The notes beneath the pieces were generated by a model that searched no databases, was not told the origin of the DNA, and saw nothing but the letters and a program-made list of their open reading frames with translations. From Naegleria gruberi (taxonomy: Eukaryota), in assembly GCA_000004985.1 (NCBI GenBank), contig GG738902.1: a stretch of 64,000 bases of DNA; one strand, 5' to 3'. How positions within the stretch are numbered: the first letter of the stretch is position 1; the number at the start of each line of letters is the position of its first letter. The translations under genes and the position numbers were made by a program. This document shows positions 3,279 through 49,532 of this stretch, piece after piece.

Positions 3279-3284
3279 GGTAAG

Positions 3285-3357
3285 TGGAGATGCGGGGTAT
3301 CGATCCCCGTACCTCTTCCATGCTAAAGAAGCGCTCTACCATGTGAGCTACATCCCC
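3285..3357 (-). tRNA. tRNA-Ala (anticodon AGC), nuclear pol III type, 73 nt, no encoded CCA.
   Basis: The minus strand reads GGGGATGTAGCTCACATGGTAGAGCGCTTCTTTAGCATGGAAGAGGTACGGGGATCGATACCCCGCATCTCCA. Acceptor stem is 7 bp with the G3:U70 Ala identity pair. D-arm is GCTC/GAGC. Anticodon stem is CTTCT/GGAAG with loop TTAGCAT. T-arm is CGGGG/CCCCG. Discriminator is A. Confidence 0.9.
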
Positions 3358-5551: not shown

Positions 5552-5895
5552 CGCAAGGATGCAAATTCAGTCATTGCTCTTGTTGCTATTCGCATCAATA
5601 TTTACCACTATTTGCCGTGCCGTTATTAAATTGGCTCAAACAAATACTTGAACCAACAAGGCAAATCTTATTACCATGAACCTCAAATCAAGCAACAAGA
5701 TAACACCTCAACAATTTCATTAATACATAACACCAATTCGGCACTTGCTAGCCTTTTATTTTCACTTGTCTTGTTGTCACTTGGAAGGATAAATTGTGGC
5801 ATAAGTTCTTTTAGAGTAATTAGTCAATTAAATTTCAATTGAACTCTTTAGTCTAAGCCCTTGCAATTAATTGATATCAAAAAAAATCTGCAAAG

Positions 5896-8800
5896 ATGCC
5901 ACTACACCAAACTTTCATCTACACTGGGAAGCTACAACCAGACGAAACTAAACATACAACATTTCCAACAACAAGAACAATATCGCGGAATAGTCGAATT
6001 TCTTTCTCTTCATCAACTATAACCACAAATTTAATTATTTCAATTCTACTGCTAGCATTTATCACCTCTCTCATACAATCTCTATATTATCAGATAGTGT
6101 ATTCATCCAACAATGACAACAAACTTTATAGTCACACATTCTTTGTGAATGCTGCCACTACATGCTATGGTGTTGACAGCACGGATCCTAGTGTTTGCTC
6201 GGGTAATGGAAATTGTACCAGTAAGAATAATTGTGAGTGCAATGATGGATTTAGTGGAAACAAATGTCAAACAGAGACGGTGAAATGTTATGGTGTAGTA
6301 GATACTGATCCTACAGTATGTTCAGGTCATGGAAATTGCTCTAGTAAGAATAATTGTCTGTGTGATTCAGGGTACAGTGGTAACAAGTGTCAAACCTTTG
6401 ATGGTACTAGTTCGATATCGTGTTATGGAATCGATTCGACAGATAGTTCAGTTTGTAATTACAATGGTAATTGCACAGCAACGAATAATTGCGTTTGTAA
6501 TCAAGGATATAGTGGAAATCAGTGCCAAACATTGGATAGCTCTTTTAAATGTTATGGAGTTGACTCTACTGACGTTTCTGTTTGTAATGGAAATGGAAAT
6601 TGTACATCAACTAATAATTGTGTCTGCAAATCTGGTTACACTGGGAATCAATGTCAAAATGAAGATAGTTCATTTAAATGCTACGGGGTTGACTCGACAG
6701 ATATCTCTGTTTGTAGCGGAAATGGAAATTGTACAAGCTCAAACAATTGCGAATGCAAATCTGGTTATACTGGTAATCAATGTCAATCAATTGATAGCTC
6801 TTTCAAGTGTTATGGTGTTGATTCGATAGATATCTCTGTTTGCAATGGAAATGGTAATTGCACTAGTTCAAATAATTGTGTTTGTAAATCTGGTTACAGT
6901 GGAAATCAATGTCAAACCTATGATGGCGGTAATAGTGGTTCATTTAAATGCTATGGAGTTGATTCTAGTGATATCTCTGTTTGTAGTGGAAACGGTAACT
7001 GTACTTCTGCTAATAATTGTGAATGTAAGGCAGGTTATAGCGGCAATCAATGCCAAACCTTCTCTACCTCTTTTAAGTGTTATGGTGTTGATTCGACAGA
7101 TAGTTCAGTTTGTAATGGAAATGGCAATTGCACCTCCTCTAATAATTGCGAATGTAAATCTGGATACACAGGAAACCAATGTCAATCAATTGATAGCTCG
7201 TTCAAGTGTTATGGTGTTGATTCGATGGATGTCTCTGTTTGCAATGGAAATGGTAATTGCACTAGTTCAAACAACTGTGTTTGTAAATCTGGTTACAGTG
7301 GGAATCAATGTCAAAACAATGATGGCAGTAGCACCATTAAATGTTATGGTATTGATTCGACTGACCCATCAGTTTGCTCAGGTCATGGTATCTGTTCCTC
7401 AACCAACGACTGCCAATGTGAAAATGGTTACAGTGGAAATAAGTGTCAAACCTTTGCAAACGAAACATCTACTTTCAAATGTTATGGTGTAGATTCTTCG
7501 GATCCTACTGTTTGCTCTGGTAATGGAAACTGTACATCCACCAACAATTGCCAATGCCAATCAGGATTCAGTGGAAATAAGTGTCAAACTACAGTTAATT
7601 ATTGCTTTGGTTATGATGAAAATGATAACAATGTTTGTGGTGGTCCAGATCGAGGAAAATGTACATCTAACGATGTTTGTGAATGTAAGGGAAGCTACGT
7701 TGGTTACGATTGTGGTGCTTTTGTTTCAGACAAATCACTCATCAAAATAACCTCAAAATATTCAAAGATTCTAAGCACCAATACTGACATTAATTTCATA
7801 ACAATTAGTATTCCAAAGCTCACTAACAGCTACAAGGGAATTGAGAATAGACTCAAGAGTACTTTGGTGATTTTCAGCAGTAATGTTACTATTGATTATT
7901 CCACTACTGGAATGATTGAACAGTTTCAATTGTATAAGAACATGACACTTGGCGTCTACTCTCTCAATTTAACCATTGTTGATACTACTTATAACATTCA
8001 AGTTGCTGCTACTGTTGAGAGCTCAATATTTTCTATACTGACTCTTGAACAAACTACTCAAAGTGTGGATACCTTGACAGCAAAAGAAATTGCACAAGTT
8101 ACAAAGCAATTGAACCAAATTACAAACCAACAACAATTTATTTCTACTGTGGTTTCTACTTTGAAAGAGAATGTTAATAATTACACAATTGATGATGGTT
8201 TAGATTTGACTTCGTCACTATTAGATATTTCCAATGTCAAGTTGGATACTAAATCTAAACTGGGAATATCTGAAACCCTAAAATCATATGCTCAAAATAT
8301 GATCGAAAAGTTTGACAATTTCACAACAGAACAAGTCAAACCAGTTGCAATTAACATCGTTTCTGTTGCCTCAAATATTTTAAATCAATCTATATTTACT
8401 GAACCATCATCTAAATTTGTGGTTATCGGTAATTCTATTCAATCCGTTGAAAAGACACTTTCCCTTGTTACGATTGTTAATCCAACAGAAAATTTATCAA
8501 TTGAAACTTCGATGATTAAGGTTCTTCTCATTTCAAAATCAGAATACAAGAATTTACATACTATAGATAAGGATTATACTCTTAATCTTCCAGAATTGGG
8601 GTTTGAATATTCGTTTGGTTTGGTAAAATATGAAAATTACTTGACAGAAGATTTGCAAAACACAAGTTCAATTTCTGACATTTTGCAAGTGAGACCAATG
8701 TTGAATGGTGTTTTTAGCCCTCTCAGACATTTATCCACTCCATTCAATTTGACTTTCTCTATCAAACATTTCGGTGCGCCACCAAGTAATGAAACAGTTG

Positions 8801-10590
8801 CAACTGTGGTTTGCAAATATTGGAACGAAACAACTAATGAATGGTTGAGTGATGGATGTAGCACCACAATCCTTTCGGCTGATCAAGTCTTGTGCTCATG
8901 CTATCACACAACAAAGTTTTCCTCCTTTGTGGATTATTCTAAAGTGAATTTCAGTACCAGAACTATTCAGACATCACTAGCCGTTGCCAACATCATTTTC
9001 AGTTCCTTATTTATTGCTGCAATTCTAGTTATCCTTGTGTTGTTGGTAATTTTCAGAAAATCCCAACCTGTAAAATCAAGATTTATTACTCCCTACTTTG
9101 CATTAACTGCCCTATTGATTGATAATTTGGTTTCTGGTATTATTGCCAAAGGACTTTTACTTGGAAATTACTCATTCAATGTAGTTATCATGACAAGTGT
9201 CTGTGCAGTAATTTCAAGTGCACTATTGGCAAGTGCAGTCTGGTGCTATTTTGTCATGTCCATTCGTTTCATCATCCACAGATACTTTTACGAATACATG
9301 ATGAGAGTGGTTGAGAACAGACAACAAAAGAATGCCGTTTTGGTTAAGATTTTGAACATTTTCAAACAGGATAAGCTTCTCATCTTGTCTAGTTTGATGA
9401 TTGGTTTTGGTTTTGTCTTGTACTTTACCATTTTTATCATTTTGAAGGGAGTGGATGCTTTCTCTGATTCTCAATTCACTTACTCAACAACCATTTCATT
9501 GTTTATTATTTTACTTTTCATGACGGCGATGGTAATTGCTATTTACATTTTAGACTTTTATTTGGACTTTACAAACAAACAATTAAGAGATGAATTAGTT
9601 GACATATCTGATGAAATAATGTTATTAGAAAGTGGAGATTCAAGCTTGAACAATCTCAATTCTAGAAAATCCCTTAAAATTACAAAACCTTTCGTTGATT
9701 TGTTGGAACAATCCCATATTAAGAAGTTTTTCAATTTATTCTACTCAAATGACAAGTTAATGTTCAGACCTGAGGCCATTTTCTTCATGTTAGGTATTTC
9801 ATTCTTTACCATTTCTTACTGCTTGGGATTTGCCAGTGTCCATGACCGTTACGTATCAAATCCAACTTCTACACAAATTCAAACAGTCGACATTCTCGAT
9901 GCAGTTGCATTCCTTTTTGAAGTCTTGATGACCGTTTGTTTGATTACTAGCTTTGGAGGTTTCTCTGTTGGTTGGGCCATTTTCACTGAAACCAGAAAGA
10001 GAAGTTGCTTCAAGGAATCCAGACAAGCTTCTGTCAATGCTGAGAGAATCAAATCTCAAAGACTTGAAAGCTACGAGGATCTTACCAACAGGTTTGATGT
10101 TTACAAGCTCATGAAGAACAAGTACTTGTTAAGACTCTTCCAACAATATGCCAAGTTGGAAATGTCACTAGAAAATTATATTGTTTGGATGCGAATTGAA
10201 CATGCCAGATCTAAATTTGCCAAATTGTGGGTTGATATGGATGGAGAAGCAGCATCTATCGAGGAATGGAATTCACTCTTGGAGGAATTACTTGGATGGC
10301 TAAAGGATCACTTGGATCCAGATGCAGAACTCGCTCTCAATGTCAGCCACCACTCTGTTAAACAATTCATTGCTGCTGTGCATATGCTAGAAAGCAAAAT
10401 TGACACCATTTCAACTAAGAACAGAGATTCCCTATTCAATTTGAAAGAAATGGTTAGACAAGCCATTGATTCATTAATCATCGATGTTCTCTACAATTTA
10501 ACAGACACCTATTCAAGATTTATCATCACGGATGAATACAAAGCTCTCAAAGAAGTAGAATCTGTTACCGAAATGAATACTTTCAAATAA
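5896..10590 (+). CDS. Adhesion-GPCR-like receptor (1564 aa): N-terminal signal/anchor, about 17 tandem EGF-like repeats, GPS/GAIN-like motif, 7TM region, C-terminal RGS domain.
   Basis: EGF units follow CYGVDSTDxSVCSGNGNCTSxNNCxCxxGYSGNxCQ. GPS-like motif is CKYWNETTNEWLSDGCSTTILSADQVLCSCYHTTKFSSF. Seven hydrophobic helices follow. The C-terminal YEDLTNRFDVYKLMKNKYLLRLFQQYAKLEMSLENYIVWMRIEHA ... LTDTYSRFIITDEYKAL resembles the RGS fold (EFSEENLEFW ... DSYPRFLKS). Continuous ORF, no intron seen. Confidence 0.75.
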   Translation: MPLHQTFIYTGKLQPDETKHTTFPTTRTISRNSRISFSSSTITTNLIISILLLAFITSLIQSLYYQIVYSSNNDNKLYSHTFFVNAATTCYGVDSTDPSVCSGNGNCTSKNNCECNDGFSGNKCQTETVKCYGVVDTDPTVCSGHGNCSSKNNCLCDSGYSGNKCQTFDGTSSISCYGIDSTDSSVCNYNGNCTATNNCVCNQGYSGNQCQTLDSSFKCYGVDSTDVSVCNGNGNCTSTNNCVCKSGYTGNQCQNEDSSFKCYGVDSTDISVCSGNGNCTSSNNCECKSGYTGNQCQSIDSSFKCYGVDSIDISVCNGNGNCTSSNNCVCKSGYSGNQCQTYDGGNSGSFKCYGVDSSDISVCSGNGNCTSANNCECKAGYSGNQCQTFSTSFKCYGVDSTDSSVCNGNGNCTSSNNCECKSGYTGNQCQSIDSSFKCYGVDSMDVSVCNGNGNCTSSNNCVCKSGYSGNQCQNNDGSSTIKCYGIDSTDPSVCSGHGICSSTNDCQCENGYSGNKCQTFANETSTFKCYGVDSSDPTVCSGNGNCTSTNNCQCQSGFSGNKCQTTVNYCFGYDENDNNVCGGPDRGKCTSNDVCECKGSYVGYDCGAFVSDKSLIKITSKYSKILSTNTDINFITISIPKLTNSYKGIENRLKSTLVIFSSNVTIDYSTTGMIEQFQLYKNMTLGVYSLNLTIVDTTYNIQVAATVESSIFSILTLEQTTQSVDTLTAKEIAQVTKQLNQITNQQQFISTVVSTLKENVNNYTIDDGLDLTSSLLDISNVKLDTKSKLGISETLKSYAQNMIEKFDNFTTEQVKPVAINIVSVASNILNQSIFTEPSSKFVVIGNSIQSVEKTLSLVTIVNPTENLSIETSMIKVLLISKSEYKNLHTIDKDYTLNLPELGFEYSFGLVKYENYLTEDLQNTSSISDILQVRPMLNGVFSPLRHLSTPFNLTFSIKHFGAPPSNETVATVVCKYWNETTNEWLSDGCSTTILSADQVLCSCYHTTKFSSFVDYSKVNFSTRTIQTSLAVANIIFSSLFIAAILVILVLLVIFRKSQPVKSRFITPYFALTALLIDNLVSGIIAKGLLLGNYSFNVVIMTSVCAVISSALLASAVWCYFVMSIRFIIHRYFYEYMMRVVENRQQKNAVLVKILNIFKQDKLLILSSLMIGFGFVLYFTIFIILKGVDAFSDSQFTYSTTISLFIILLFMTAMVIAIYILDFYLDFTNKQLRDELVDISDEIMLLESGDSSLNNLNSRKSLKITKPFVDLLEQSHIKKFFNLFYSNDKLMFRPEAIFFMLGISFFTISYCLGFASVHDRYVSNPTSTQIQTVDILDAVAFLFEVLMTVCLITSFGGFSVGWAIFTETRKRSCFKESRQASVNAERIKSQRLESYEDLTNRFDVYKLMKNKYLLRLFQQYAKLEMSLENYIVWMRIEHARSKFAKLWVDMDGEAASIEEWNSLLEELLGWLKDHLDPDAELALNVSHHSVKQFIAAVHMLESKIDTISTKNRDSLFNLKEMVRQAIDSLIIDVLYNLTDTYSRFIITDEYKALKEVESVTEMNTFK
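6160..7720 (+). repeat. In-frame tandem array of about 150-bp units encoding the EGF-like repeats; accounts for the overlapping ORF-track artefacts at 6329..6829 and 6845..7492.
   Basis: Near-identical stretches recur every roughly 150 nt, for example tgttatggtgttgattcgacagat... and ggaaatggaaattgtac. Confidence 0.8.
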
Positions 10591-10672: not shown

Positions 10673-11910
10673 TTATCTTTTAATGGGCGGGCGTGTCTGT
10701 AAATCACTGATTGAATAATCCTGGAATATTTTCAACATGCGCTCTCTATTCATCAATTTTGTAGTGTGTGTAATTATTAAATCTCCTCTTTTACAAACGA
10801 ATTCGAATAGATCATCCCCAATATAATCCTCATGAATATAGTGAATGTAAAGAAGAATCTCAGGATACTTTGAAAAAAAGGGTGCAACTTCATAATATTC
10901 ATAACATGTACTCACTGAGACATCATACCGTAAAGTTAATTCCAAATATTTCAATCTTTCGGTTCTAGGAATATAGCGGATACACTTTGGTACAATTGAA
11001 AGAATTTGAGGTAGGAATGTAGCTTGTTCCTTGACAAAGCGAAATGTTGAGGGATCTCTTTTCACACAATTCATTACAATTTCCTGATAATTTTCAATGG
11101 CAGGATCAACATATTGGAGGGTGAGAGGATCCAACTCAAGTGCTGGTATTACAATTTCTGGATTCTTTTTGAAAGCTGCAGTCATAAATTGAAGATTGTG
11201 TGGCAGTTTTCTAATGGCCAATAGAGCCATTTCTAAATCAGATTTGAATTCAAAATAAATGTATCTGAATAAATGTGGATTAATTTCTAGAGCCATCTTG
11301 GTTAATTCTCTATCTTTTCTCAATTCCAATTTGATAAATGAAAAGGAAGCTGGATTTAATCTCATATTAATCAATGATTCTTTTACAATTTGCATATCCT
11401 GAAGAGATTCATCAAATTTTTCAAATGAAACTCCATAATTGAGCATTTCCATCATTAATTCTCTATCATTTCTATAAGAATGATTCGTTGGAAAATGATG
11501 TGCTTCCCTCTTTTTTTATCCAATTTCAGAATTTTCAAAAGATATTCAATCGATGAATCGTGACTCAAGGCATAAATTACAAATTCTCTCATTTTAAACA
11601 ATGATTCATCTAAAAGTTTTGCAATTTTTTGTGGATTTCCTTTTCCACTTTGAATTATTTGCATCATGAGTTCTTTATCTTTTCTAAAAGATTTTGGAAT
11701 TAGCTCAAGACATTCTGGATCAATTTCAAATGCCATTAACATTGATTCTCTTGTTTCTTTCCAATTATCTGGGAAATATGAAAATTTTGGATTGATTTGT
11801 TGTCCACTTTTGGCAGCCATCTTGCCTAATTCAAAATCCTTTTCCAAATTATTGACATTTGGCACATATCCATATTTGCTAGCCACCAATTCAAGAATTT
11901 CTCTATCCAT
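10673..11910 (-). pseudogene. DUF4116-repeat protein gene interrupted by a frameshift near 11455-11520; either a pseudogene or a sequencing indel in a homopolymer.
   Basis: Two abutting ORFs (11455..11910 and 10673..11455) both carry the 24-26-aa repeats (IDPECLELIPKSFRKDKELMMQII and LEINPHLFRYIYFEFKSDLEMALLAI). The downstream frame stays open upstream through ...SYRNDRELMMEMLNYG, which is itself a repeat unit. No GT...AG intron is available there. An A7/T7 run lies at about 11510-11516. Confidence 0.55.
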
Positions 11911-12307: not shown

Positions 12308-12785
12308 CTTTTTTGTACGCTTCTATCTTTTTCAATGGAACAAGTTGAAATTACCTTCAATTATTTAAAATAGAATCTTTTTGTAGTATTATTTGAATAA
12401 CATTCTTAGCTAAGAACCATTAGATGACAAAAAACCAAAAACCGCCCAGCAAAACCGTTACACCATTATAAATGGTTTTTCAAAAAAAAACACCATCAAG
12501 AATTTATTCTCACCTGCAATGAAGTAACAACGACACACAGGTGCTAGTTTCAAATCCACATCAAATTACCTGTCTAGATGCCCTTTGCCAATTCTCTTTT
12601 ACCAAGAGCAAAGTGAAAGTCCCCAAAAGATGTTTCCACCATAATACAAAAACAAGTAACACATATTTTCATATATGAATAATATCTATTGCAAGATATT
12701 ATAATCACCATCAAACTATTTGACAAATAAAATTAGCCGGCTGGTTTGCCATCATAATATCCAAGTTGGATTTCAAACAACAAAA

Positions 12786-15700
12786 ATGTCCAAATTGCTT
12801 CTCCTACTATTACTTTCTCTTTTATTTGCAACAACAACAACACGAATAATCAGTGCCTACATCCTGCTACCACAACAATCAGCATCATCTTCACTTTATA
12901 ATAACCAAGATGATAATTCATCATCAACAACTATAATAACATCATCCTCATCATCATCAAATGTATTACTTTCTGCTACAGCAGCAGTGGTGGTGGAGAG
13001 GAATAAAACATTCTATATCAATGAAGCGAATGGCACACAAAGTGGTGATTGTTCCGAGCCTTCAAAAGCCTGCTCCTCCATCCTCTATTTAACTGGTTTG
13101 ATTTCACGATCGACCGATTATTTAACAAACAAGTTTTTAATCTATCTAATAGGAGATTGTATTAAATATGAACCAATAACATTCAGTACCATGACCTTGA
13201 CGAGTACTTTTATATTTCTCTCATACAATGATTCAAATAATACAAATAATAGTAGTGGCAGTACAGTTAATAGAGTGACATTGGCAAATAAGAGATGGTT
13301 AGCTCAATTTTCAAGTATGGGATTTGAAAATTTAATTGTGGACAAGATGGAAATATTTCCAGGAGATGGATTTTCATTTGTGAATTGTCTGGTTAGAGGG
13401 ATGAGTTTGAAGAGAGGATTTACTTGGATGATTGTGAAGAATACAGTGATTGAGGATTCAATTTTTGGAGATGATAGTGTCACGAGTTATATGAGGAATA
13501 AGGACGATAGACCAGTGATTGAAATTACACAGAGTAGAATTGTTCGTTCAAAGATGAATTTAGAATCAATTACTAATGTTATGAACTGTAATTTTACCGA
13601 ATCTAATATGACGATTAGCAATTCAGTATCTTCAACATTGCAGAATATTGCTGTTAACAATTCTAGAATTTTATTAAGAGTTGTCTTTTATATTAATGTG
13701 AATTATTTTGATTGCTCCAATAGTAGTTCATCATTTGCAATTGATGGAGCCAATGAGGTTAAAATTGTGAGGTTCAATTTTGAGAATTGTAATAATTATG
13801 GAGAAAGTACTCTCTTCTCTACTGTTAGGACTTTAAATATTGATCACATGAATTATATTAGAAATAAGGGTGCACTTACGTTTTTAGGAGTTTACCAAAC
13901 TAATATGGGATCATCTAATTTTATTGAGAATAGAAATGGTGCCATTCAAGTGGAAAATCATGGCGACTCACCAACATATTTTGTCGTGCAAGGTTCCAAG
14001 TTTTTGAGAAATAGCAGATTATCAAATGGTGGAGCTATTTATATGGATTCAGCTTTATCAAATTTCCATACCTATTCTAGTGTATTTGAAGATAATATGG
14101 CATTGAATGGAGGTGCTGTATATGTATTAGCATCCATTAGAAATACCTATACCAATACTGTTTTTAACAGAAATAAGGTTACAGACTGTGCTAAATGCGG
14201 TAATGGTGGAGCTCTTTATTCCAACACAAACTCTCTAGAGTGGAGATCCTCCAATTTTACAAATAATGTAGCCATTAAGGGAGGAGCTGTTTTTATTGAT
14301 AGAGTACCATCTATTACCTTTGAAACTCAGGATATTGTGTTTCAAAATAATGAAGCTCAATTTGGATCAGACTTTTTCTTTGAAAAGTATGAAGTTGACA
14401 AGTTCCCTGTTGATAAATATGCAAACTCTACTGCCAGCTCAATTATGAAGAGTTTCAAAGTACTCATGAATAATATTGAGATAGACTCAGGAAAGAACTT
14501 TGATGTCTATCCAGGTGAAACGATACAATTACAATATTCCTTTGAAGACATATTTGGAAATAGAATTGAATCTTCTCATAATCAACCTGTCATATCCTCT
14601 GATGCAAATATTACTCTATACACAGTTTTTACCTCAAATACGGACTTTAAGTTGCTCTTTGATTTGAATAATAAGGGAGAGATATCTACAACTGTTGAAT
14701 TGGTCATTGCCTATTCAGAATTTACTGTAATTAGTGAATTGCATCTCACCATTGCTCCATGTCCACAGTATCATCGTTTACAACAGGTCAATTTTAATGG
14801 ATACAAATGTGTCAAGCAAGATGTATTGCTTATTATCATTTCCTCTGTACTTTCATTTATTTCCCTGCTTATAATAATACCATTCATTTCATTCATTCTT
14901 TACAGGTTTGCACTCAAAAAGTTGTTTATATTCTACAAGAGAGAACGAGAGGAGAGAAGAATTGAAAAGCAATTGAAAGATTACCTCTTTAGAAATATTA
15001 ATGCCAATGATGAGAAACAAGGTCTCCTCAAATCTTTGACACATTCTAATATGATAATTCCAATCAGTGACATTCAAATTGTTTCCAAAATAGGAGAAGG
15101 ATCGAATGGTGTAGTATATTTGGGGCGATGGAAACAAACTGACGTTGCCCTCAAAAGTATCAAACATGATTCTACCGATATTGATATTGAAAATCAATTA
15201 GAAGAATTTGAACATGAAGCTTCCTTATTAGCAAGCTTACGTCATCCCAATGTCATTTCATTTTATGGTATTAGTTTCGGTCTCAATGTACAATACATGG
15301 TAGTTGAATATTCAGTTAATGGAAGTTTGGACAAGGCAATTCATCAATCCAAGATTAAGAAGAAGGTTCTCAGTTTTAGAGATAAGATTAATATTGTTCT
15401 TGGAATTTCAAAAGGTTTAAATTACTTGCATTCATTGAGACCACAAATGATTGTTCACAGGTATGTATTTGAATAGTCTTATTGAGATTAATACTGAAAT
15501 TATCAAATAATTTTAGAGATTTGAAACCTGGAAATATTCTATTGGATAGTAATTTTGAGCCAAAGGTAACAGATTTTGGAATGAGTCGATTTATTGGAAC
15601 TGAAAATTCATCCATGACCATGAATGTTGGTACATTACGATATTGTGCACCTGAGATATTCAACAATGACAAACACGATGCCAATCACATGGTCGATGTC

Positions 15701-26568: not shown

Positions 26569-26986
26569 TGATATAGTCATTCACATGTGGACATGAAATT
26601 TAATAAAAATTCAAGAAAACAATCTTTTTCTCAATGTTGGAATACATGAAAATTAAGAACTTGTAAGTCCCAATTAATGTAAATTCCTTGTCTGATTTGG
26701 CGAGATATGTTACAATGGAAAAATTCATTAAAATTCATCTGCGTCTCACTTTACTGGTCAGAACTTCTCCCGCCAAATCGTAAACGAGTAACCAATCATA
26801 ACTGTTACGCTTGAAAAATTTACTTTAGAAAAAAAAAACTCAATTCTCTCCCCTCTACACTCTTTCAGTTGTTGTTGCAACAAATTTTTATCGTAGTGAG
26901 GGTTTTTATATATTTTGTATAGTTCATCATCCAAATCCAAATCATCATCAACCACCTTACTTACTATATTATTTATTAAATCGAGA

Positions 26987-29900
26987 ATGGGTTGCGGAAA
27001 TTCAAAATCAACACTCGGTGTAGTTGAGACCGTCGAAGAAAAACCAAAACAACAAGCCACTGTCAATAACACCACTAATACTACCACTGCTGTCATGACA
27101 GGAACACTTGAACCAGAGGCACCAAAGAAGAAGGATGGTTTCTGTTACTTCTTTGGTCTTGACAGTCAAACTAAGGAAAACCTCACTGAAGGGAATAAGG
27201 ATATGAAGGAACTACTTGGAGGAAAAGGTGCTAACTTGTGCGAAATGTGCAATTTAGGTATTAATGTTCCTCCTGGATTTACTGTTTCTACAGAAGCCTG
27301 TGAACACTTTAGCCAGCTTCATAACCTTGCTACTTCAGCAGGAGAAGAAGGAGCTGAAAAAAAGAATCTCACTTTACCAGAAAACATTCAAACACAAGTC
27401 GACGAATATCTCAAAAAATTGGAACAAGCAACTGGAAAGAAATTTACCGATTCATATGAAAATGATACAGATAAGGTTCTCTTAATTTCTGTGAGATCAG
27501 GAGCTGCCATTTCAATGCCTGGAATGATGGACACTATTCTTAACCTTGGTATTTGTGACAAGAATATTACTCAACTCGTTAAAAACTTTGGTGGAAATGA
27601 AAAATTCGCTTGGGATTCATATCGTAGTCTCGTTCAAATGTTCGGTGAAGTTGTCATGTCAGTCAAGCCAGAACATTTCGAAGACAATATCAAAAAGCAA
27701 AAGGAAAAGAGAGGTATTACTCATGATTCTGAATTGAATTTGGAAGAAATTCAACAAATCGTTCAAGATCACAAACTTACTATTTTCGAACAAACTGGAG
27801 GTGAAGACTTCCCACAAGATGTTCGTCAACAATTGTACAGAGCTATTATTGCTGTCTTTAACTCATGGCACAATAAGCGTGCTGTGCAATATAGAAAGAT
27901 TCACAACATTACTGGTCTTAAGGGAACTGCTGTAAATATTCAATCCATGGTCTTTGGTAATGTTGATGAACGTTCATGTTCTGGTGTCTGTTTCAGTAGA
28001 AATCCTTCAACAGGTGAAAATCTATTCTATGGTGAATATATGATTCAAGCACAAGGTGAAGCTATTGTTGCTGGTCAAAGAACTCCAGAAAAGATTGAAA
28101 CCTTGGCTACTAACTTCCCAGAATGTAACACTAGTTTGAAGGAAATCAGTACCAAATTGGAAAAGCACTTTAAGGATGTCCAAGATATGGAATTCACAAT
28201 TGAACAAAATACTCTCTATATGTTGCAATGCAGAAATGGTAAAAAGACAATTCAAGCTTCTCTCAAGATTTACTGTGACATGATAGATGAAGGTCTTATC
28301 AATGAAAGAGAAGCCATCTCAAAGATTGATGCTACTCAACTCAACCAAATGCTCCATCCATTCTTGGATGATTCTGAAAAGGCTCATCACGAACCTTTGG
28401 CAACTGGTTTACCAGCAAGTCCTGGTGCTGTAGTTGGTAGAATTGCTTTCACCAGTGAACAAGCCATTAAAATGTCTGAAACCAGAAAGGAAGATGGTGA
28501 TGTCATCTTGGTCAGAGAACAAACAAGCACTGAAGATTTGGCTGGTATGCATGCTTCTCAAGGTTTCTTGACTACTAATGGTGGTCTTACTTCTCATGCT
28601 GCTGTTGTTTCTCGTCAACAAGGTAAATGCTGTGTAAGTGGATGTAGCTTGCTTTATGTCACTAGTGAAGAATCTTGTACAATTAATGGAACCCTCTTTA
28701 ATCAAGGTGATATTATTACTATTGATGGTTCAACTGGTAATGTCTACGGTAAGGCTCTCAAGACAACTAGACCAGGTATTTCTCAACCTGACTTTGTCAG
28801 AATTATGGATATTGAAAAGAAGTACAGAACTATGAGTGTCTATGCTAACGCTGATACATCTGTCGATGCTCATAAGGCTGTTGAATTCGGTGCTGAAGGT
28901 ATTGGATTGTGTAGAACTGAGCACATGTTCTTTGAAAAGACAAGAATAGTTGACATGAGAAGAATGATTGTTGCCTCCACCACAGAAAAGAGACAAGAAG
29001 CTATTAATGTTCTCAAAGATTATCAACGTTCTGATTTCCTTTCCCTCTTCCATGCTATGGAAGGAAAGAAGGTCACTATTAGATTGTTAGATCCTCCACT
29101 TCACGAATTTTTACCAGAAGATCCACAAGAAATTGAAGAATTGGCTTTGGCTCTTGGTGAATCTGTTAAGGATGTTACCCTTACTGTCTCTCAACTCAAG
29201 GAAAAGAATCCAATGTTGGGTCATCGTGGTTGTAGATTGGGTATTACCTTCCCCGAGATTACTCAAATGCAAGTTGAAGCCATTTTTGAAGCTGCTATTG
29301 ATGCTACTCATAAGGGCGAAGTTGTTGTTGATATTATGGTTCCATTAGTTCAATCTGTTCAAGAACTTGTCAACCAAAAGGAAATTATTGAAAAAGTTGC
29401 TTCATCATTGTTTGCCAAGCATGAAGACAGAAAATATCTCATTCATTACAGAGTTGGTTGTATGATTGAAACTCCAAGAGCTGTTTTGATGGCTAAAGAA
29501 CTTGCTGGTGTTGCTGATTTCTTCAGTATTGGAAGTAATGACTTGACTCAAATGACCTTTGGTTTCAGTAGAGACGACAGTGGTAAATTCCTTAAATATT
29601 ATCTCGAACGTGACTTGATTGAAAATGATCCATTCGAAGTTTTGGATACAGAAGGTGTTGGAAAGATTATTCAACTCACTGTCCAAACTGGTAGAGAAGC
29701 AAAGAATGGTTTGACTGTTGGTTTGTGCGGTGAACATGGTGGTGAATCTCACTCTGTTAAATTCTTGTACCAATGCGGTCTTTCATATGTCAGTTGTTCA
29801 CCTTATAGAATTCCAATCGCTAGACTTTCTGCTGCTCAAGAATCTGTCAAGAATTGGAGAAATGTTATTTGTGTTAATGGTGGTCCAGGATCAGGAAAGG

Positions 29901-30412
29901 GCACACAATGTGCCAAACTTGTTGAAAAGTATGGTTTTATCCATTATAGTACAGGTGATTTGTTGAGAGCTGAAGCTGCTAAGGATACAGAACAGGGTAG
30001 AATGATCTCGTCATACATTAAGGAAGGTAAGATTGTGCCTGGTGCTGTTACTCTTGGTTTGTTAAGAAATGCTATTTTGAACCATCCTAAAAAGGATGCT
30101 ACGTTCTTGATCGATGGCTTCCCAAGAGAAATGCAACAAGCTGTTGACTTTGAAGCTCATGTCTGTAAATTCAAGTTTGTCCTCTTCTTTGATTGTCCAG
30201 AAGAAATTTTGGAACAAAGATTGTTAGAAAGAGGTAAGACGAGTGGTAGATCTGATGACAATGCCGAAAGTATTAAGAAGAGATTCAAGACCTATAGCGA
30301 CCAAACAATGCCAGTTATTGGATACTTTAAGAAGACTGATAGAGTCAAGACAATTGATAGTTCAAAGACACAAGAAGAAGTGTTTGCTGAAGTATGCAAA
30401 TTATTTGATTAA
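26987..30412 (+). CDS. Pyruvate,phosphate dikinase fused in-frame to a C-terminal adenylate kinase / UMP-CMP kinase-like domain (from about 29860). N-terminal MGCGNSKS dual-acylation motif.
   Basis: PPDK hallmarks run the length of the protein (LLGGKGANLCEM, GINVPPGFTV, GGLTSHAAVVSRQQGKCCVSG, GAEGIGLCRTEHMFF, SIGSNDLTQMTFG, LCGEHGG, SYVSCSPYRIPIARLSAAQ). There is then no stop before NGGPGSGKGTQC...GDLLRAE...IDGFPRE...RLLERGKTSGRSDDN, which is the P-loop/LID of adenylate kinase. Gly2, Cys3 and Ser6 follow ATG 26987. Confidence 0.85.
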   Translation: MGCGNSKSTLGVVETVEEKPKQQATVNNTTNTTTAVMTGTLEPEAPKKKDGFCYFFGLDSQTKENLTEGNKDMKELLGGKGANLCEMCNLGINVPPGFTVSTEACEHFSQLHNLATSAGEEGAEKKNLTLPENIQTQVDEYLKKLEQATGKKFTDSYENDTDKVLLISVRSGAAISMPGMMDTILNLGICDKNITQLVKNFGGNEKFAWDSYRSLVQMFGEVVMSVKPEHFEDNIKKQKEKRGITHDSELNLEEIQQIVQDHKLTIFEQTGGEDFPQDVRQQLYRAIIAVFNSWHNKRAVQYRKIHNITGLKGTAVNIQSMVFGNVDERSCSGVCFSRNPSTGENLFYGEYMIQAQGEAIVAGQRTPEKIETLATNFPECNTSLKEISTKLEKHFKDVQDMEFTIEQNTLYMLQCRNGKKTIQASLKIYCDMIDEGLINEREAISKIDATQLNQMLHPFLDDSEKAHHEPLATGLPASPGAVVGRIAFTSEQAIKMSETRKEDGDVILVREQTSTEDLAGMHASQGFLTTNGGLTSHAAVVSRQQGKCCVSGCSLLYVTSEESCTINGTLFNQGDIITIDGSTGNVYGKALKTTRPGISQPDFVRIMDIEKKYRTMSVYANADTSVDAHKAVEFGAEGIGLCRTEHMFFEKTRIVDMRRMIVASTTEKRQEAINVLKDYQRSDFLSLFHAMEGKKVTIRLLDPPLHEFLPEDPQEIEELALALGESVKDVTLTVSQLKEKNPMLGHRGCRLGITFPEITQMQVEAIFEAAIDATHKGEVVVDIMVPLVQSVQELVNQKEIIEKVASSLFAKHEDRKYLIHYRVGCMIETPRAVLMAKELAGVADFFSIGSNDLTQMTFGFSRDDSGKFLKYYLERDLIENDPFEVLDTEGVGKIIQLTVQTGREAKNGLTVGLCGEHGGESHSVKFLYQCGLSYVSCSPYRIPIARLSAAQESVKNWRNVICVNGGPGSGKGTQCAKLVEKYGFIHYSTGDLLRAEAAKDTEQGRMISSYIKEGKIVPGAVTLGLLRNAILNHPKKDATFLIDGFPREMQQAVDFEAHVCKFKFVLFFDCPEEILEQRLLERGKTSGRSDDNAESIKKRFKTYSDQTMPVIGYFKKTDRVKTIDSSKTQEEVFAEVCKLFD

Positions 30413-47493: not shown

Positions 47494-49381
47494 TCAGGTA
47501 AATTCCAATTTGAACTTTTTTAGGAATAAATTGTTGTAATTCAACAGTTTCGTTTCCAAGGCTCTCCATGATTTTTCTTAATAATTCATAAATTTCAATA
47601 ATTTCACTTAATTCATCCTTATTTAACAATTGAATGTCAGTTAAATATTCTTGATTCAAATATGTTTTGATAAATTCATCCAATACTATTAACTTCTCTT
47701 CCAATTCTTGAATATATTTGGTCAATTTCATTAAAAAATTCTCCGATTTAATGCTTTCTACCATACAAGTCATGTTTAACTTTAGTTCATCAACTTGTGA
47801 ACTTTCTTGTTCAAGTTTCAATTCATTAGCATGTTCAAAACAATTCTTTAACTTTTCACAAATTTCCAAATATTCTTTTTGAAATTCATTTTCTAATACA
47901 GTACATAAAACCTTAATTGCATTGATTTGTGAATTGGATTGAGTTTCTTCTTGTCTTTCAATATTTGTTTCTTGTGTTTCGTCTTGTTCTTTAATATTTT
48001 CGTCTTGTTTTTCGAGAGTTTCTTGATTTTCATCATGTTTTTCCTCTTGTTGTTCGAGAGTTTCTTGGTTTTCATCATGTTTTTCAAGTGGTTCTTGTTT
48101 TTCAAGAATTTCTTTCTTAATTTTATCTTTTTCAACTTTTTCATTCAATTCCTTCTTAATTTTGGAAATTTCCTTTCCGTTGACTTTCCATAAATTGTTA
48201 ATTTTAATATTTGGTGATTGAAGTAATAATTTAACAATTTCTAAACGTCCTTTTTCACATGCAATATGTAATGGAGACTAATAAATATTTAAAAATGTTG
48301 TAATTATTATTACTTACTTCCTATTATGGTAATGTTTAAAATAAGTATTAAATACAAACCATCTAAATAATAATGTAAAATATTTTAAATATTTAATTCT
48401 TACATGCTACGAGGAAATAATTAATAAATTAATTATTAATTTACATACTTCCTAAAATAGATAAATAATTTAATTGGTTAATTACTCACTTTCTAATAAC
48501 AAAGTTGGCAAATTAATTTCAATATTTAATAATACTAACTTCCTATTAAAAAAATTAATATTAAATATTAAAAATACTAACAATCTAAAAAAATGTAAAT
48601 ATTTAAAATTGTTTAAAAACTTACAACTCTCTAAAACAAATATACACGTAATTTAATTAGTAGAGACTTACTTGCTAATAAAAATATTAATTTAAGATTA
48701 TATTACTTAAATTACATACTTCCTAATAAGGAACTTGTTCATAAATAAAGAATTTAATACTTACTCCCTAATAATATTAACATTAAATAGTTATAAGTGA
48801 AATACTAACTTTCTAATAAATTATTTTATAAATAACTAAGTATTAAATACTTACATGCTAATAAAATGCTAATTTAATACAAAATTACCAAATTTAGAAT
48901 ACTTACATACTAAAAATAGTATTATTTTTATATTTTTTAATATTAAATTACTTACAGTCTGAAAATATTATTATTACAATGCTAGCAACACTTACAAACT
49001 AATAGCATTAAATATAAATAATTAATTATTCAATTCCTTACATACTAATTAATTATTTAGTATTTTACAATATTTCCTTAAATACTTACTTTCTACAATC
49101 ATACCCATTTAGATCTTATTAAACAATTGATATTCTACTCACATACTACTCAATTTTAAATATTTATAATGTTAATATTAAATAGTACTTACTCCCTTAT
49201 TCACATCAAGTCCTCCACAATTCAACAATAACTTGACAATTTCCAAATGTCCCCTCTCACAAGCCATGTACAACAATGTCTTATTCCGATCAGATTCATT
49301 TACCTTCGTTGGCTTGAAATACTTTTTAAACTCGGCAACGTTTCCACTATTTGCAGCATCTACAAGATGAGGAGAGAGCAT
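47477..49381 (-). CDS. Ankyrin-repeat plus acidic coiled-coil protein. First exon 49381..49193, a 915-nt microexon/mini-intron array at 49192..48278, and a downstream exon 48277..47477.
   Basis: Upstream exon reads ...TLLYMACERGHLEIVKLLLNCGGLDVNKG. Downstream exon reads SPLHIACEKGRLEIVKLLLQSPNIKINNLWKVNGKEISKIKKELNEKVEKDK..., in frame with ORF 47477..48148, then an E/K-rich helix. Confidence 0.65.
48278..49192 (-). other. Array of 20 tandem mini-introns (about 37-50 nt) separated by 19 microexons of 3 nt (one alternatively 6 nt).
   Basis: The minus strand reads GGA|GTAAGTAC...GAGTAG|TAT|GTGAGTAG...TTGTAG|AAA|GTAAGTAT...TAATTAG|TAT|GTAAGG...TATTAG|TTT|GTAAGTG...TTTTCAG|ACT|GTAAGTAA...TTTTTAG|TAT|GTAAGTAT...TTATTAG|CAT|GTAAGTAT...TTATTAG|AAA|GTTAGTAT...TTATTAG|GGA|GTAAGTAT...TTATTAG|GAA|GTATGTAA...TTATTAG|CAA|GTAAGTCT...TTTTAG|AGA|GTTGTAAGT...TTTTTAG|ATT|GTTAGTAT...TTAATAG|GAA|GTTAGTAT...TTATTAG|AAA|GTGAGTAA...TTTTAG|GAA|GTATGTAA...CTCGTAG|CAT|GTAAGA...TTATTTAG|ATG|GTTTGTAT...CATAATAG|GAA|GTAAGTAA...TTATTAG|TCTCCA. 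None of the 3-nt units is a stop codon. Confidence 0.7.
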
Positions 49382-49532
49382 TTTGATGTTTGGTGTTGTT
49401 TTGTTTTTTTTGAATGAAATTTTCTTTTTATCACCATATTAAGGCCTTAATGAAAGTTCATTATGGTTTGGGAACTTGTAATTTCTAGAAGTTGCGTTTG
49501 GAGTTTAATTAGAATGTTTAAAAATTGAAGTA

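What the first reader, a model, noticed from the sequence alone, without database searches (positions are those of the whole stretch)
5896..10590. Single ORF fusing EGF-repeat ectodomain, GPS motif, 7TM core and a C-terminal RGS domain
The architecture is that of an adhesion-class GPCR: a tandem EGF array, then a GPS-like motif (C.W..W..GC....C.C.HTT.F) immediately before TM1. The cytoplasmic tail then carries a recognisable RGS fold (EMSLENYIVWMRIE ... TYSRFIITDEYKAL).
Receptor and G-alpha GTPase accelerator in one polypeptide is known for plant-type 7TM-RGS proteins. I am not aware of it combined with an adhesion-GPCR ectodomain, so it would be a self-limiting G-protein signalling module.
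Basis: partly seen in the sequence, partly recalled or inferred. Interest (0 to 1): 0.8.

Follow-up and report, generated by a model that had tools for sequence, protein, structure and literature searches.

The report
Naegleria EGF–GPS–7TM–RGS surface receptor
The ORF is a real Naegleria gruberi surface receptor that joins an adhesion-GPCR-like ectodomain (12 EGF repeats and a GPS cleavage motif) to a seven-helix membrane core and a cytoplasmic RGS domain, but the same architecture was already described and partly tested in its sister species N. fowleri in 2022.

Summary
Window 5896-10590 (+) is one uninterrupted 1564-codon ORF. It is identical to the N. gruberi 'predicted protein' XP_002671840 / D2VVT5.

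It encodes, in order:
- an N-terminal hydrophobic anchor;
- 12 six-cysteine EGF units;
- a GAIN-like region ending in a significant GPS motif (H-T|T);
- an RGS box. It falls just under Pfam's cut-off alone, but its family profile hits RGS10/5/18/2/4 structures at E down to 1e-13.

All RGS4-type Galpha-contact residues are conserved.

The fusion is conserved end to end in at least 90 clusters (50% identity) from the named sources N. gruberi, N. lovaniensis, N. fowleri and Willaertia, plus unnamed metagenome sequences.

The novelty claim fails. Bosch, Jeck and Siderovski (JBC 2022) reported 28 '7TM RGS' proteins in N. fowleri. Several have GPS motifs and EGF or lectin ectodomains, and their RGS boxes accelerate GTP hydrolysis on Galpha subunits, some of them self-activating. 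One family hit here is their Nf 7TM RGS1.

One nuance: the 7TM core is not detectably secretin/adhesion-type (7tm_2). Only the GPS, tethered-agonist-like (Stachel) strand and TM1 resemble adhesion GPCRs.

Most likely function: a GAP regulated by a ligand or by adhesion. Verdict: new member of a known kind.

The parts
5896..10590 (+). Single-exon gene for a 1564-aa EGF-GPS-7TM-RGS receptor (N. gruberi NAEGRDRAFT_73134)
   Evidence: ORF listing. Exact match to XP_002671840.1 / D2VVT5. It is the only match in the window to the family HMMs.
6019..6081 (+). N-terminal hydrophobic segment (aa about 42-62), read as a signal anchor or uncleaved signal peptide that places the ectodomain outside the cell
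   Evidence: Kyte-Doolittle peak of 2.28 at aa 42-60. Cleavage was not tested.
6163..7731 (+). Array of 12 six-cysteine EGF-like units (aa 90-612)
   Evidence: Pfam EGF_2 E 5.6e-53 with 12 stretches, plus EGF_Teneurin and DUF7949. 12 C[YF]G-initiated units holding 72 Cys. DNA tandem repeat with period about 129 nt.
7993..8931 (+). GAIN-like region (aa about 700-1012): a helix-prone stretch followed by a beta-rich stretch that ends in the GPS motif
   Evidence: The family profile A2 hits only adhesion-GPCR GAIN domains in the PDB (ADGRF1 8.6e-12, ADGRG1 7.8e-8, G3, G6, BAI3, CELSR1, L3). hhalign against the regions upstream of GPS in genuine adhesion GPCRs gives probability 98.7, E 2.4e-16, but the alignment is confident only in the last 90 or so columns. 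No structural model was made of this region.
8809..8931 (+). GPS motif (aa 972-1012) with C, W, W, G-C, C-x-C and the putative cleavage triplet H1004-T1005|T1006 (nt 8905-8913)
   Evidence: Pfam GPS 35.2 bits against a cut-off of 22.5. GPS found in 30 of 30 family members. C, W, GC, CxC, HTT, F and F are invariant columns. The canonical cleavage motif is H-X-S/T (abstract of PMC13062082).
8911..8937 (+). Tethered-agonist-like (Stachel-like) strand TKFSSFVDY (aa 1006-1014), directly after the putative cleavage site
   Evidence: F at +3 and F at +6 are invariant in the family (F69 and F72). It aligns to the 'HlT~FAVlm' consensus of genuine adhesion GPCRs. It is modelled as the last beta-strand, residues 69-77 of the model.
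8962..9984 (+). Seven-transmembrane core (aa about 1023-1363) with a roughly 60-aa third intracellular loop (aa about 1227-1287). TM7 continues as a long cytoplasmic helix to about aa 1386.
10093..10563 (+). C-terminal RGS box (aa about 1400-1556). Predicted Galpha-contact residues are E1422, S1424, E1426, N1427, N1482, D1537, T1538, R1541 and F1542.
   Evidence: Pfam RGS 22.0 bits, E 2.2e-4, covering 3-114 of 117. RGS found in 29 of 30 family members, best E 1.5e-11. The family profile hits RGS10/5/18/2/3/16/8/4/7 structures at E down to 1.4e-13. Foldseek TM-score 0.64-0.72, normalised to the target, to the RGS1/8/9/16/18 chains. Residue mapping to RGS4.

Best explanation
The gene encodes a cell-surface member of the heterolobosean '7TM RGS' receptor family.

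Shown here:
- A hydrophobic N-terminal anchor is followed by 12 EGF-like repeats and a GAIN-like region. That region ends in a GPS motif with an intact H-T|T triplet and a conserved hydrophobic strand like the adhesion-GPCR tethered agonist (Stachel).
- A seven-helix core with a GPCR fold follows at once.
- TM7 runs on as a long helix into a C-terminal RGS box. This box keeps every residue that RGS4-type domains use to contact the Galpha switch regions.

Inferred:
- The RGS box sits at the inner membrane face and accelerates GTP hydrolysis on one or more Naegleria Galpha subunits. In N. fowleri several Galpha subunits exchange nucleotide faster than they hydrolyse GTP ('self-activating'). Signal strength is therefore set at the GAP step, as with plant AtRGS1.
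- Engagement of the EGF/GAIN ectodomain changes the conformation, clustering or surface residence of the 7TM core. The trigger could be a ligand, a surface or prey contact, or force that removes the N-terminal fragment and frees the tethered strand. This change alters the RGS box's access to Galpha-GTP.

In short, it is a GAP regulated by a ligand or by adhesion, rather than a classical exchange-factor receptor.
For: - The ORF is continuous and identical to the public gene model.
- EGF, GPS and RGS profile hits.
- The family profile gives full-length RGS matches to about 30 solved RGS domains, E down to 1.4e-13.
- RGS fold in the model: Foldseek probability 1.0, TM-score 0.64-0.72 normalised to the target.
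- Invariant family columns E483, E487, N488, N543, N595, D598, T599, R602 and F603 map to RGS4 E83, E87, N88, N128, N158, D163, S164, R167 and F168. RGS4 numbering is from my knowledge of the 1AGR complex.
- Topology is consistent. The K/R-rich loop 'RKSQPVKSR' after TM1 is conserved, and the tail is cytoplasmic.
- Exhaustive HMMER search: 204 relatives at E<=1e-3, 90 at E<=1e-10, many collinear from the GAIN-like region to the RGS box. The GPS and RGS motifs sit at a conserved spacing.
- Named sources are N. gruberi, N. lovaniensis, N. fowleri and Willaertia magna.
- Hit P0026/P0153 carries the peptides encoded by the cloning primers of Nf 7TM RGS1. P0046 and P0048 end in the C-terminal peptides of Nf 7TM RGS2/3 and RGS4.
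- Published biochemistry: the RGS boxes of Nf 7TM RGS2, 3 and 4 act as GAPs on Nf Galpha2, 3, 5 and 7. The activity is lost with the switch-I Gly-to-Ser mutation. Galpha5 and Galpha7 are self-activating. The genes are transcribed (PMC9283941).
Against: - No experiment exists on this protein.
- Its RGS box is only about 21-22% identical to those of the relatives of Nf 7TM RGS1 and RGS4. Alone it scores just under Pfam's gathering threshold. It also carries an insertion of about 10 residues relative to the family consensus.
- Nothing shows that the ectodomain regulates the GAP. The N. fowleri authors state that this remains to be determined.
- Cleavage at H-T|T is untested. The usual residue before the cut is Leu.
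- No N. gruberi Galpha kinetics are available.
Confidence: 0.72

Rival explanations
1. Bifunctional, self-limiting receptor. The 7TM core is a true GPCR that acts as an exchange factor when the tethered strand is exposed. The fused RGS box then switches the same Galpha off quickly, giving brief, spatially confined pulses.
For: The 7TM core has a full GPCR fold. GPS and the tethered-agonist-like F+3/F+6 pattern are invariant across the family, which suggests selection for a tethered-ligand mechanism. GPS through TM1 aligns to adhesion GPCRs. Not all N. fowleri Galpha subunits self-activate (abstract), so some would need an exchange factor.
Against: No 7TM-RGS protein has been shown to have exchange activity. 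From my own knowledge, AtRGS1 is regarded as a GAP only. The 7TM core lacks any detectable 7tm_2 signature. The Naegleria Galpha partners that were tested include self-activating ones that need no exchange factor.
Confidence: 0.2
2. The RGS-like tail is a non-catalytic scaffold, like the RGS-homology domains of GRKs or Axin. It would tether Galpha or other partners without accelerating hydrolysis.
For: The single-sequence Pfam score is below the gathering cut-off. The RGS box is divergent, at 21-22% identity to the relatives of the assayed N. fowleri proteins. Some RGS domains are known to have lost GAP activity (de Mendoza et al. 2014).
Against: All RGS4-type contact residues are present and invariant in the family: the E-x-S-x-E-N loop, the Asn128 equivalent and D-T-x-x-R-F. 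The PDB matches are to catalytic R4, R7 and RZ RGS domains at E down to 1e-13, while Axin scores only E about 0.09.
Confidence: 0.06
3. Annotation or assembly artefact: two adjacent genes, a GPS receptor and an RGS protein, read through as one ORF.
For: No transcript data could be examined here.
Against: The frame runs 4,695 nt without a stop in a genome of about 34% G+C. 29 of 30 relatives from four genera have GPS and RGS in the same order and at the same spacing. The N. fowleri RGS fragments are numbered within long polypeptides, for example 2293-2459.
Confidence: 0.02

Closest known systems
Naegleria fowleri 7TM RGS proteins (Nf 7TM RGS1-4; Bosch, Jeck and Siderovski, J Biol Chem 2022, PMC9283941)
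   Same: Same superfamily and same architecture: EGF-like or lectin ectodomain, GPS motif, 7TM, C-terminal RGS box. Nf 7TM RGS1 (primer peptides NKDMSI and NVVYLC*) is hit P0026/P0153, E 1.2e-36 to this protein across GPS, 7TM and RGS. Representatives ending in the RGS2/3 and RGS4 C-terminal peptides are also hits.
   Different: Different species and a different subfamily. RGS-box identity is only about 21-22% to the relatives of Nf 7TM RGS1 and RGS4. The closest relatives are uncharacterised proteins: N. lovaniensis C9374_008645 (46% in the RGS box, 50% over GPS to the end), N. lovaniensis C9374_009399, N. fowleri FDP41_001840 and the N. gruberi paralogue NAEGRDRAFT_49726. This ectodomain is a pure 12-EGF array with no lectin domain.
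Plant AtRGS1-type 7TM-RGS proteins
   Same: Seven TM helices followed by a cytoplasmic RGS box. The proposed logic is the same: a membrane GAP holds a self-activating Galpha in check and is regulated from outside the cell.
   Different: From my own knowledge, AtRGS1 has only a short N-terminus with no EGF, GAIN or GPS ectodomain. Whether the two 7TM cores are homologous was not tested here.
Metazoan adhesion GPCRs (class B2; e.g. CD97/ADGRE5, latrophilins, ADGRF1, CELSR)
   Same: An EGF-repeat ectodomain; a GPS motif with the canonical Cys/Trp pattern and an H-X-T triplet directly before TM1; a hydrophobic pattern like the tethered agonist. The profile matches adhesion GPCR structures across GPS, the tethered strand and TM1 at E down to 2.5e-8 and their GAIN domains at 8.6e-12. 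The top Foldseek hit is inactive CD97.
GPR158/GPR179-RGS7 complexes (class C orphan receptors that recruit an RGS protein)
   Different: In those complexes the RGS is a separate polypeptide recruited non-covalently. Here it is fused. There is no specific sequence relationship.

Membership tests
Naegleria / heterolobosean 7TM RGS family (Bosch et al. 2022) | Sequence homology across 7TM plus RGS to the published Nf 7TM RGS proteins | tested here: met
   P0026/P0153 is Nf 7TM RGS1 by its primer-encoded peptides. It scores E 1.2e-36 over query positions 285-932. P0046 and P0048, which carry the RGS2/3 and RGS4 C-terminal peptides, score E about 1e-29 nearly end to end.
Naegleria / heterolobosean 7TM RGS family (Bosch et al. 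2022) | Seven TM helices immediately N-terminal to a C-terminal RGS box | tested here: met
   Hydropathy. AlphaFold model with pLDDT 80.5 showing seven TM helices followed by the RGS helices.
Naegleria / heterolobosean 7TM RGS family (Bosch et al. 2022) | GAP activity of the RGS box on Naegleria Galpha subunits | not testable with these tools
   Only inferred, from conserved contact residues and from assays on N. fowleri paralogues.
RGS domain (Pfam PF00615) | Significant profile match over the whole domain | tested here: met
   Alone: 22.0 bits against a gathering score of 23.9, E 2.2e-4, covering 3-114 of 117. This is marginal. The family profile hits solved RGS domains at E down to 1.4e-13, and 29 of 30 relatives hit PF00615.
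RGS domain (Pfam PF00615) | All-helical RGS fold | tested here: met
   Foldseek matches to RGS1, RGS8, RGS9, RGS16 and RGS18 chains with TM-score 0.64-0.72 normalised to the target, probability 1.0.
RGS domain (Pfam PF00615) | Galpha switch-contact residues (RGS4 E83/S85/E87/N88, N128, D163/S164/R167) | tested here: met
   E1422/S1424/E1426/N1427, N1482 and D1537/T1538/R1541. These columns are invariant or nearly invariant in 30 relatives.
Adhesion GPCR (class B2) | GPS motif with conserved Cys/Trp and an H-X-S/T cleavage triplet directly before TM1 | tested here: met
   PF01825 35.2 bits against a cut-off of 22.5. Present in 30 of 30 relatives. C, W, GC, CxC and HTT are invariant. About 17 residues separate the triplet from TM1.
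Adhesion GPCR (class B2) | Complete GAIN domain of about 320 aa (helical subdomain A plus beta-sandwich subdomain B) | tested here: inconclusive
   All PDB hits of the upstream profile are adhesion-GPCR GAIN domains, but the strong signal is limited to the last 60-110 residues. The longer ADGRL3 alignments score only E 0.045-0.24. hhalign spans 258 columns but is confident in only about 90. Pfam GAIN did not hit.
Adhesion GPCR (class B2) | Secretin-like 7TM domain (Pfam 7tm_2, PF00002) | tested here: not met
Adhesion GPCR (class B2) | Autoproteolysis and activation by the tethered agonist | not testable with these tools
   The sequence prerequisites are present: H1004, the T1006 nucleophile, and hydrophobic residues at +3, +6 and +7.
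Plant-type 7TM-RGS (AtRGS1) | Homology of the 7TM core to the AtRGS1 7TM | not tested
The afdb50 library was not available.

The most novel reading that the evidence does not exclude
The GAIN/GPS module with its tethered strand is here joined to a 7TM core that is not of the secretin/adhesion type, and its output is a fused GAP. On this reading the heterolobosean proteins would be a third membrane-protein class that uses GAIN, after adhesion GPCRs and PKD1-like proteins. They would work as 'inverse adhesion GPCRs': mechanical or ligand-induced exposure of the tethered strand would switch a GAP on or off towards self-activating Galpha, rather than switching on an exchange factor.
Probability: 0.25. 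Interest if true: 0.65.

Novelty: new member of a known kind. Interest (0 to 1): 0.3.

Why it matters
The protein is a clean, intron-free example from a non-pathogenic, culturable amoeba of an architecture so far studied only as isolated RGS boxes from N. fowleri. It could serve to test whether an adhesion-GPCR-type ectodomain with a tethered peptide can regulate a GAP, and so how G-protein signalling runs without exchange-factor receptors. The finding that only GPS, the tethered strand and TM1 look like adhesion GPCRs, while the 7TM core does not, bears on how portable the GAIN module has been in evolution. The existence of the fusion itself is not a discovery, because it is published.

Tried and rejected
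- The search for homologous proteins returned nothing for aa 940-1564. With the 30-sequence profile it returned only 3 hits. The word index fills its 8000-candidate limit for this low-complexity protein. The exhaustive HMMER search was needed instead.
- The look-up of encoding contigs found no record. The listing of cluster members gave the identity.
- Single-sequence AlphaFold gave pLDDT 43 and was unusable. That used one of the two structure jobs, so the GAIN-like region could not be modelled.
- Fold search against afdb50 was unavailable, so no comparison with AtRGS1-like models was possible.
- Anantharaman et al. 2011 (PMC3396428) and Bradford et al. 2013 (PMC4871593) might mention Naegleria 7TM-RGS proteins earlier, but neither is held.
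- Weak Pfam hits (Bacteriocin_IId in TM7, hAT-like RNase-H, CelTOS, DUF5071) fall below their cut-offs and were rejected as chance or composition matches.
- The alternative-frame ORFs 6329-6829 and 6845-7492 inside the EGF array are by-products of the repeat, not genes.
- A second family member in the window was looked for and not found.
Full report
**What is there**

Window 5896-10590 (+) is one uninterrupted ORF of 1564 codons, in DNA of about 34-36% G+C. The stop-to-stop frame starts at 5875, so the first ATG is the only possible start in this exon. The translation is identical, end to end, to Naegleria gruberi XP_002671840.1 / EFC39096.1 / UniProt D2VVT5 (NAEGRDRAFT_73134). That entry is annotated only as 'predicted protein' and lies on a 306-kb scaffold. 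The window is therefore N. gruberi nuclear DNA, and the public gene model is the same single exon.

**Domain by domain**

- **N-terminus.** A hydrophobic segment at aa about 42-62 can act as a signal anchor.
- **EGF array.** Residues 90-612 hold 12 units, each starting C[YF]G and holding six cysteines, 72 Cys in all. Pfam EGF_2 scores E 5.6e-53 with 12 stretches. At the DNA level this is a tandem array with a period of about 129 nt.
- **GPS.** Scanned as a sub-region, aa 972-1009 match Pfam GPS at 35.2 bits against a cut-off of 22.5, E 1.8e-8. The motif carries the canonical C-W-W-GC-CxC pattern and the triplet H1004-T1005-T1006. This fits the H-X-S/T cleavage consensus (abstract of PMC13062082).
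- **7TM.** Seven hydrophobic segments follow between aa 1023 and 1363.
- **RGS.** The tail matches Pfam RGS over nearly the whole profile (3-114 of 117). The score is 22.0 bits, E 2.2e-4, just under the 23.9-bit gathering score. The three best single-sequence PDB hits are RGS5, RGS3 and a Drosophila RGS, all weak.

**Relatives settle the marginal calls**

An exhaustive HMMER search with aa 621-1564 against 1.84 billion representative proteins found 204 relatives at E<=1e-3, 90 at E<=1e-10 and 41 at E<=1e-30. Many align collinearly from the GAIN-like region to the C-terminus. Most of the top 90 contain CxCxH[T]T, then about 400 residues, then E[FM]SxEN, then about 100 residues, then DT[YF]SRF.

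Named sources are N. gruberi paralogues, N. lovaniensis, N. fowleri and Willaertia magna, plus unnamed metagenome contigs.

I aligned 30 relatives from 60 residues before the GPS cysteine pair to the end (alignment A1).
- Invariant GPS columns: C, W, G-C, C-x-C, H-T-T, F(+3) and F(+6).
- Invariant RGS columns: E483, E487, N488, N543, N595, D598, T599, R602 and F603.
- Every member hits Pfam GPS, and 29 of 30 hit Pfam RGS, best E 1.5e-11.

The A1 profile matches about 30 solved RGS domains over the whole box: RGS10 at 1.4e-13, then RGS5, 18, 2, 3, 16, 8, 14, 1, 7, 4, 17, 6, 12 and GAIP. Axin scores only E about 0.09.

I aligned RGS4 to the family HMM. The mapping for this protein is as follows:
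- E1422, S1424, E1426, N1427 correspond to RGS4 E83, S85, E87, N88.
- N1482 corresponds to N128.
- D1537, T1538, R1541, F1542 correspond to D163, S164, R167, F168.

These are the residues that contact the Galpha switch regions in the RGS4-Gi-alpha-1 complex (my knowledge of 1AGR). This protein has an insertion of about 10 residues relative to the family consensus. That may contribute to its low single-sequence Pfam score.

**Structure**

A single-sequence AlphaFold run was useless, with pLDDT 43. With the 30-sequence alignment, the model of aa 940-1564 has mean pLDDT 80.5 and pTM 0.74. It shows:
- the last beta-strands of a GAIN-B-like sheet, including the strand right after H-T|T;
- seven long TM helices, with TM7 continuing as a helix of about 60 residues;
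- a helical C-terminal domain.

The best Foldseek hit in the PDB is inactive CD97/ADGRE5 (E 8.3e-4). RGS1, RGS8, RGS9, RGS16 and RGS18 chains follow, with TM-scores of 0.64-0.72 normalised to the target and probability 1.0.

**How far is it an adhesion GPCR?**

The ectodomain side fits.
- The A1 profile matches ADGRF1, G6, L3, G3, G2, CELSR1, latrophilin-1, E5 and D1 across GPS, the tethered strand and TM1, at E down to 2.5e-8.
- A separate profile of the 385 residues upstream of GPS (alignment A2, 18 sequences) hits only adhesion-GPCR GAIN domains: ADGRF1 8.6e-12, ADGRG1 7.8e-8, then G3, G6, BAI3, CELSR1 and L3.
- The strong signal covers only the last 60-110 residues. Longer ADGRL3 alignments score E 0.045-0.24. 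hhalign against the upstream regions of genuine adhesion GPCRs spans 258 columns (probability 98.7, E 2.4e-16) but is confident in only about 90. A complete GAIN fold is therefore likely but not shown.

The membrane core does not fit.
- No family member hits Pfam 7tm_2.
- The more distant hits that match only the GPS region are genuine GPS+7tm_2 receptors.
- hhalign of the 7TM profile of this family against six of them finds nothing: probability 0.26%, E 0.24, covering 38 columns of TM1.

The 7TM core is either an extremely diverged class B domain or a different GPCR-fold family that acquired a GAIN/GPS module.

The strand after the putative cut, TKFSSFVDY, keeps hydrophobic residues at +3, +6 and +7. 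It aligns to the 'T-x-F-A-V-L-M' consensus of the adhesion receptors. A tethered-ligand mechanism is therefore plausible.

**What is already known**

Bosch, Jeck and Siderovski (J Biol Chem 2022, PMC9283941) report the following.
- N. fowleri expresses 28 seven-transmembrane proteins with C-terminal RGS domains.
- Several (Nf 7TM RGS1-4) have EGF-like repeats and lectin or carbohydrate-binding domains in the ectodomain.
- The isolated RGS boxes of Nf 7TM RGS2, 3 and 4 accelerate GTP hydrolysis on Nf Galpha2, 3, 5 and 7. Activity is lost with the switch-I Gly-to-Ser 'RGS-insensitive' mutation.
- Binding is selective for the transition-state form of Galpha.
- Galpha5 and Galpha7 are self-activating.

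The cloning primers in their Table S1 translate to NKDMSI and NVVYLC* for Nf 7TM RGS1. Both peptides occur, 180 residues apart and at the C-terminus, in hit P0026/P0153 (N. fowleri FDP41_005437). That hit scores E 1.2e-36 to this protein. Representatives ending in the C-terminal peptides of RGS2/3 (QVNLL, P0046) and RGS4 (VVYGI, P0048) are also near full-length hits.

De Mendoza et al. 2014 counted 229 RGS proteins in N. gruberi. They also noted 7TM-RGS architectures in many non-metazoan lineages.

The kind is published, and this N. gruberi gene is an uncharacterised member of it.

It belongs to a different subfamily from the assayed proteins. RGS-box identity is about 21-22% to the relatives of Nf 7TM RGS1 and RGS4. 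It rises to 46% to N. lovaniensis C9374_008645 and 36% to the N. gruberi paralogue NAEGRDRAFT_49726.

**Mechanism**

Shown: the domain order, the topology-compatible layout, an intact RGS contact surface, an intact GPS triplet and conservation of the fusion.

Inferred: the RGS box is a membrane-tethered GAP for Naegleria Galpha subunits. Because some of those subunits self-activate, the GAP step sets signalling, as with plant AtRGS1. Ectodomain engagement, or loss of the N-terminal fragment, modulates that GAP through the 7TM core. I give this about 0.72.

The family keeps a tethered-agonist-like strand and a full GPCR fold, and not all Naegleria Galpha subunits self-activate. However, no 7TM-RGS protein has been shown to have exchange activity.

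A non-catalytic RGS scaffold (about 0.06) and a gene-fusion artefact (about 0.02) are unlikely, for the reasons given under rival explanations.

**Surroundings**

The family HMMs find no second member in the 64-kb window. Neighbouring genes are unrelated: a coiled-coil protein on the minus strand upstream, DUF4116 repeat proteins downstream and a transmembrane kinase.

**Verdict**

The gene is a new member of a known kind, of modest interest. The residual interest lies in the open question of whether a GAIN module with a tethered peptide can gate a GAP, and in the non-class-B nature of the 7TM core.

Noticed in passing
window 26915-30412 (+): One 1165-aa ORF combines a complete pyruvate phosphate dikinase (PPDK_N, PEP-utilizers, PEP-utilizers_C) with a C-terminal adenylate kinase domain (ADK, E 1.7e-48, aa 988-1141). 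PPDK produces or consumes AMP, so a fused adenylate kinase could couple its AMP to the ADP/ATP pool.
   Followed up: no
window 58863-63989 (-): A 1707-aa ORF carries a DOCK-type C2 domain (E 1.4e-21) and a C-terminal RasGEF domain (E 3.5e-34) in one frame. This is an unusual pairing of Rho-GEF-family and Ras-GEF modules. The ORF starts with TTG near the window edge, so the gene may continue beyond it.
   Followed up: no
window 12720-15476 (+): A 918-aa ORF has a large Asn/Ser-rich ectodomain, one TM helix and a protein kinase domain. The kinase domain stops at profile position about 127 of 258 where the ORF ends, so an intron probably follows. A distant GPS-region hit from the family search, P0121, combines Chlam_PMP repeats, a GPS motif and a kinase. 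GPS is therefore also used in single-pass receptor kinases somewhere, source unknown.
   Followed up: partly
window 10673-11455 (-), 11455-11910 (-), 56076-57596 (+): The ORFs at 10673-11455 and 56076-57596 are DUF4116 repeat proteins (E 4.6e-22 and 2.2e-43). The first starts 83 nt downstream of the receptor gene on the opposite strand. A third ORF at 11455-11910 abuts the first on the same strand but was not scanned.
   Followed up: no
window 3284-3357 (-): tRNA-Ala (anticodon AGC), the only tRNA found in the window.
   Followed up: no
window 48001-50000: G+C drops to 0.251 against about 0.33 elsewhere in the window. The cause was not examined.
   Followed up: no
window 6329-6829 and 6845-7492 (+, other frame): Two long alternative-frame ORFs (166 and 215 aa) lie inside the EGF repeat array. 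They are most likely stop-free by-products of the repeated codons, not genes.
   Followed up: partly
window 8081-8130 (+): A short, imperfect 20-21-nt tandem repeat of about 2.2 copies lies inside the GAIN-like coding region. It falls in the Gln/Asn-rich stretch around 'KQLNQITNQQQ'.
   Followed up: no
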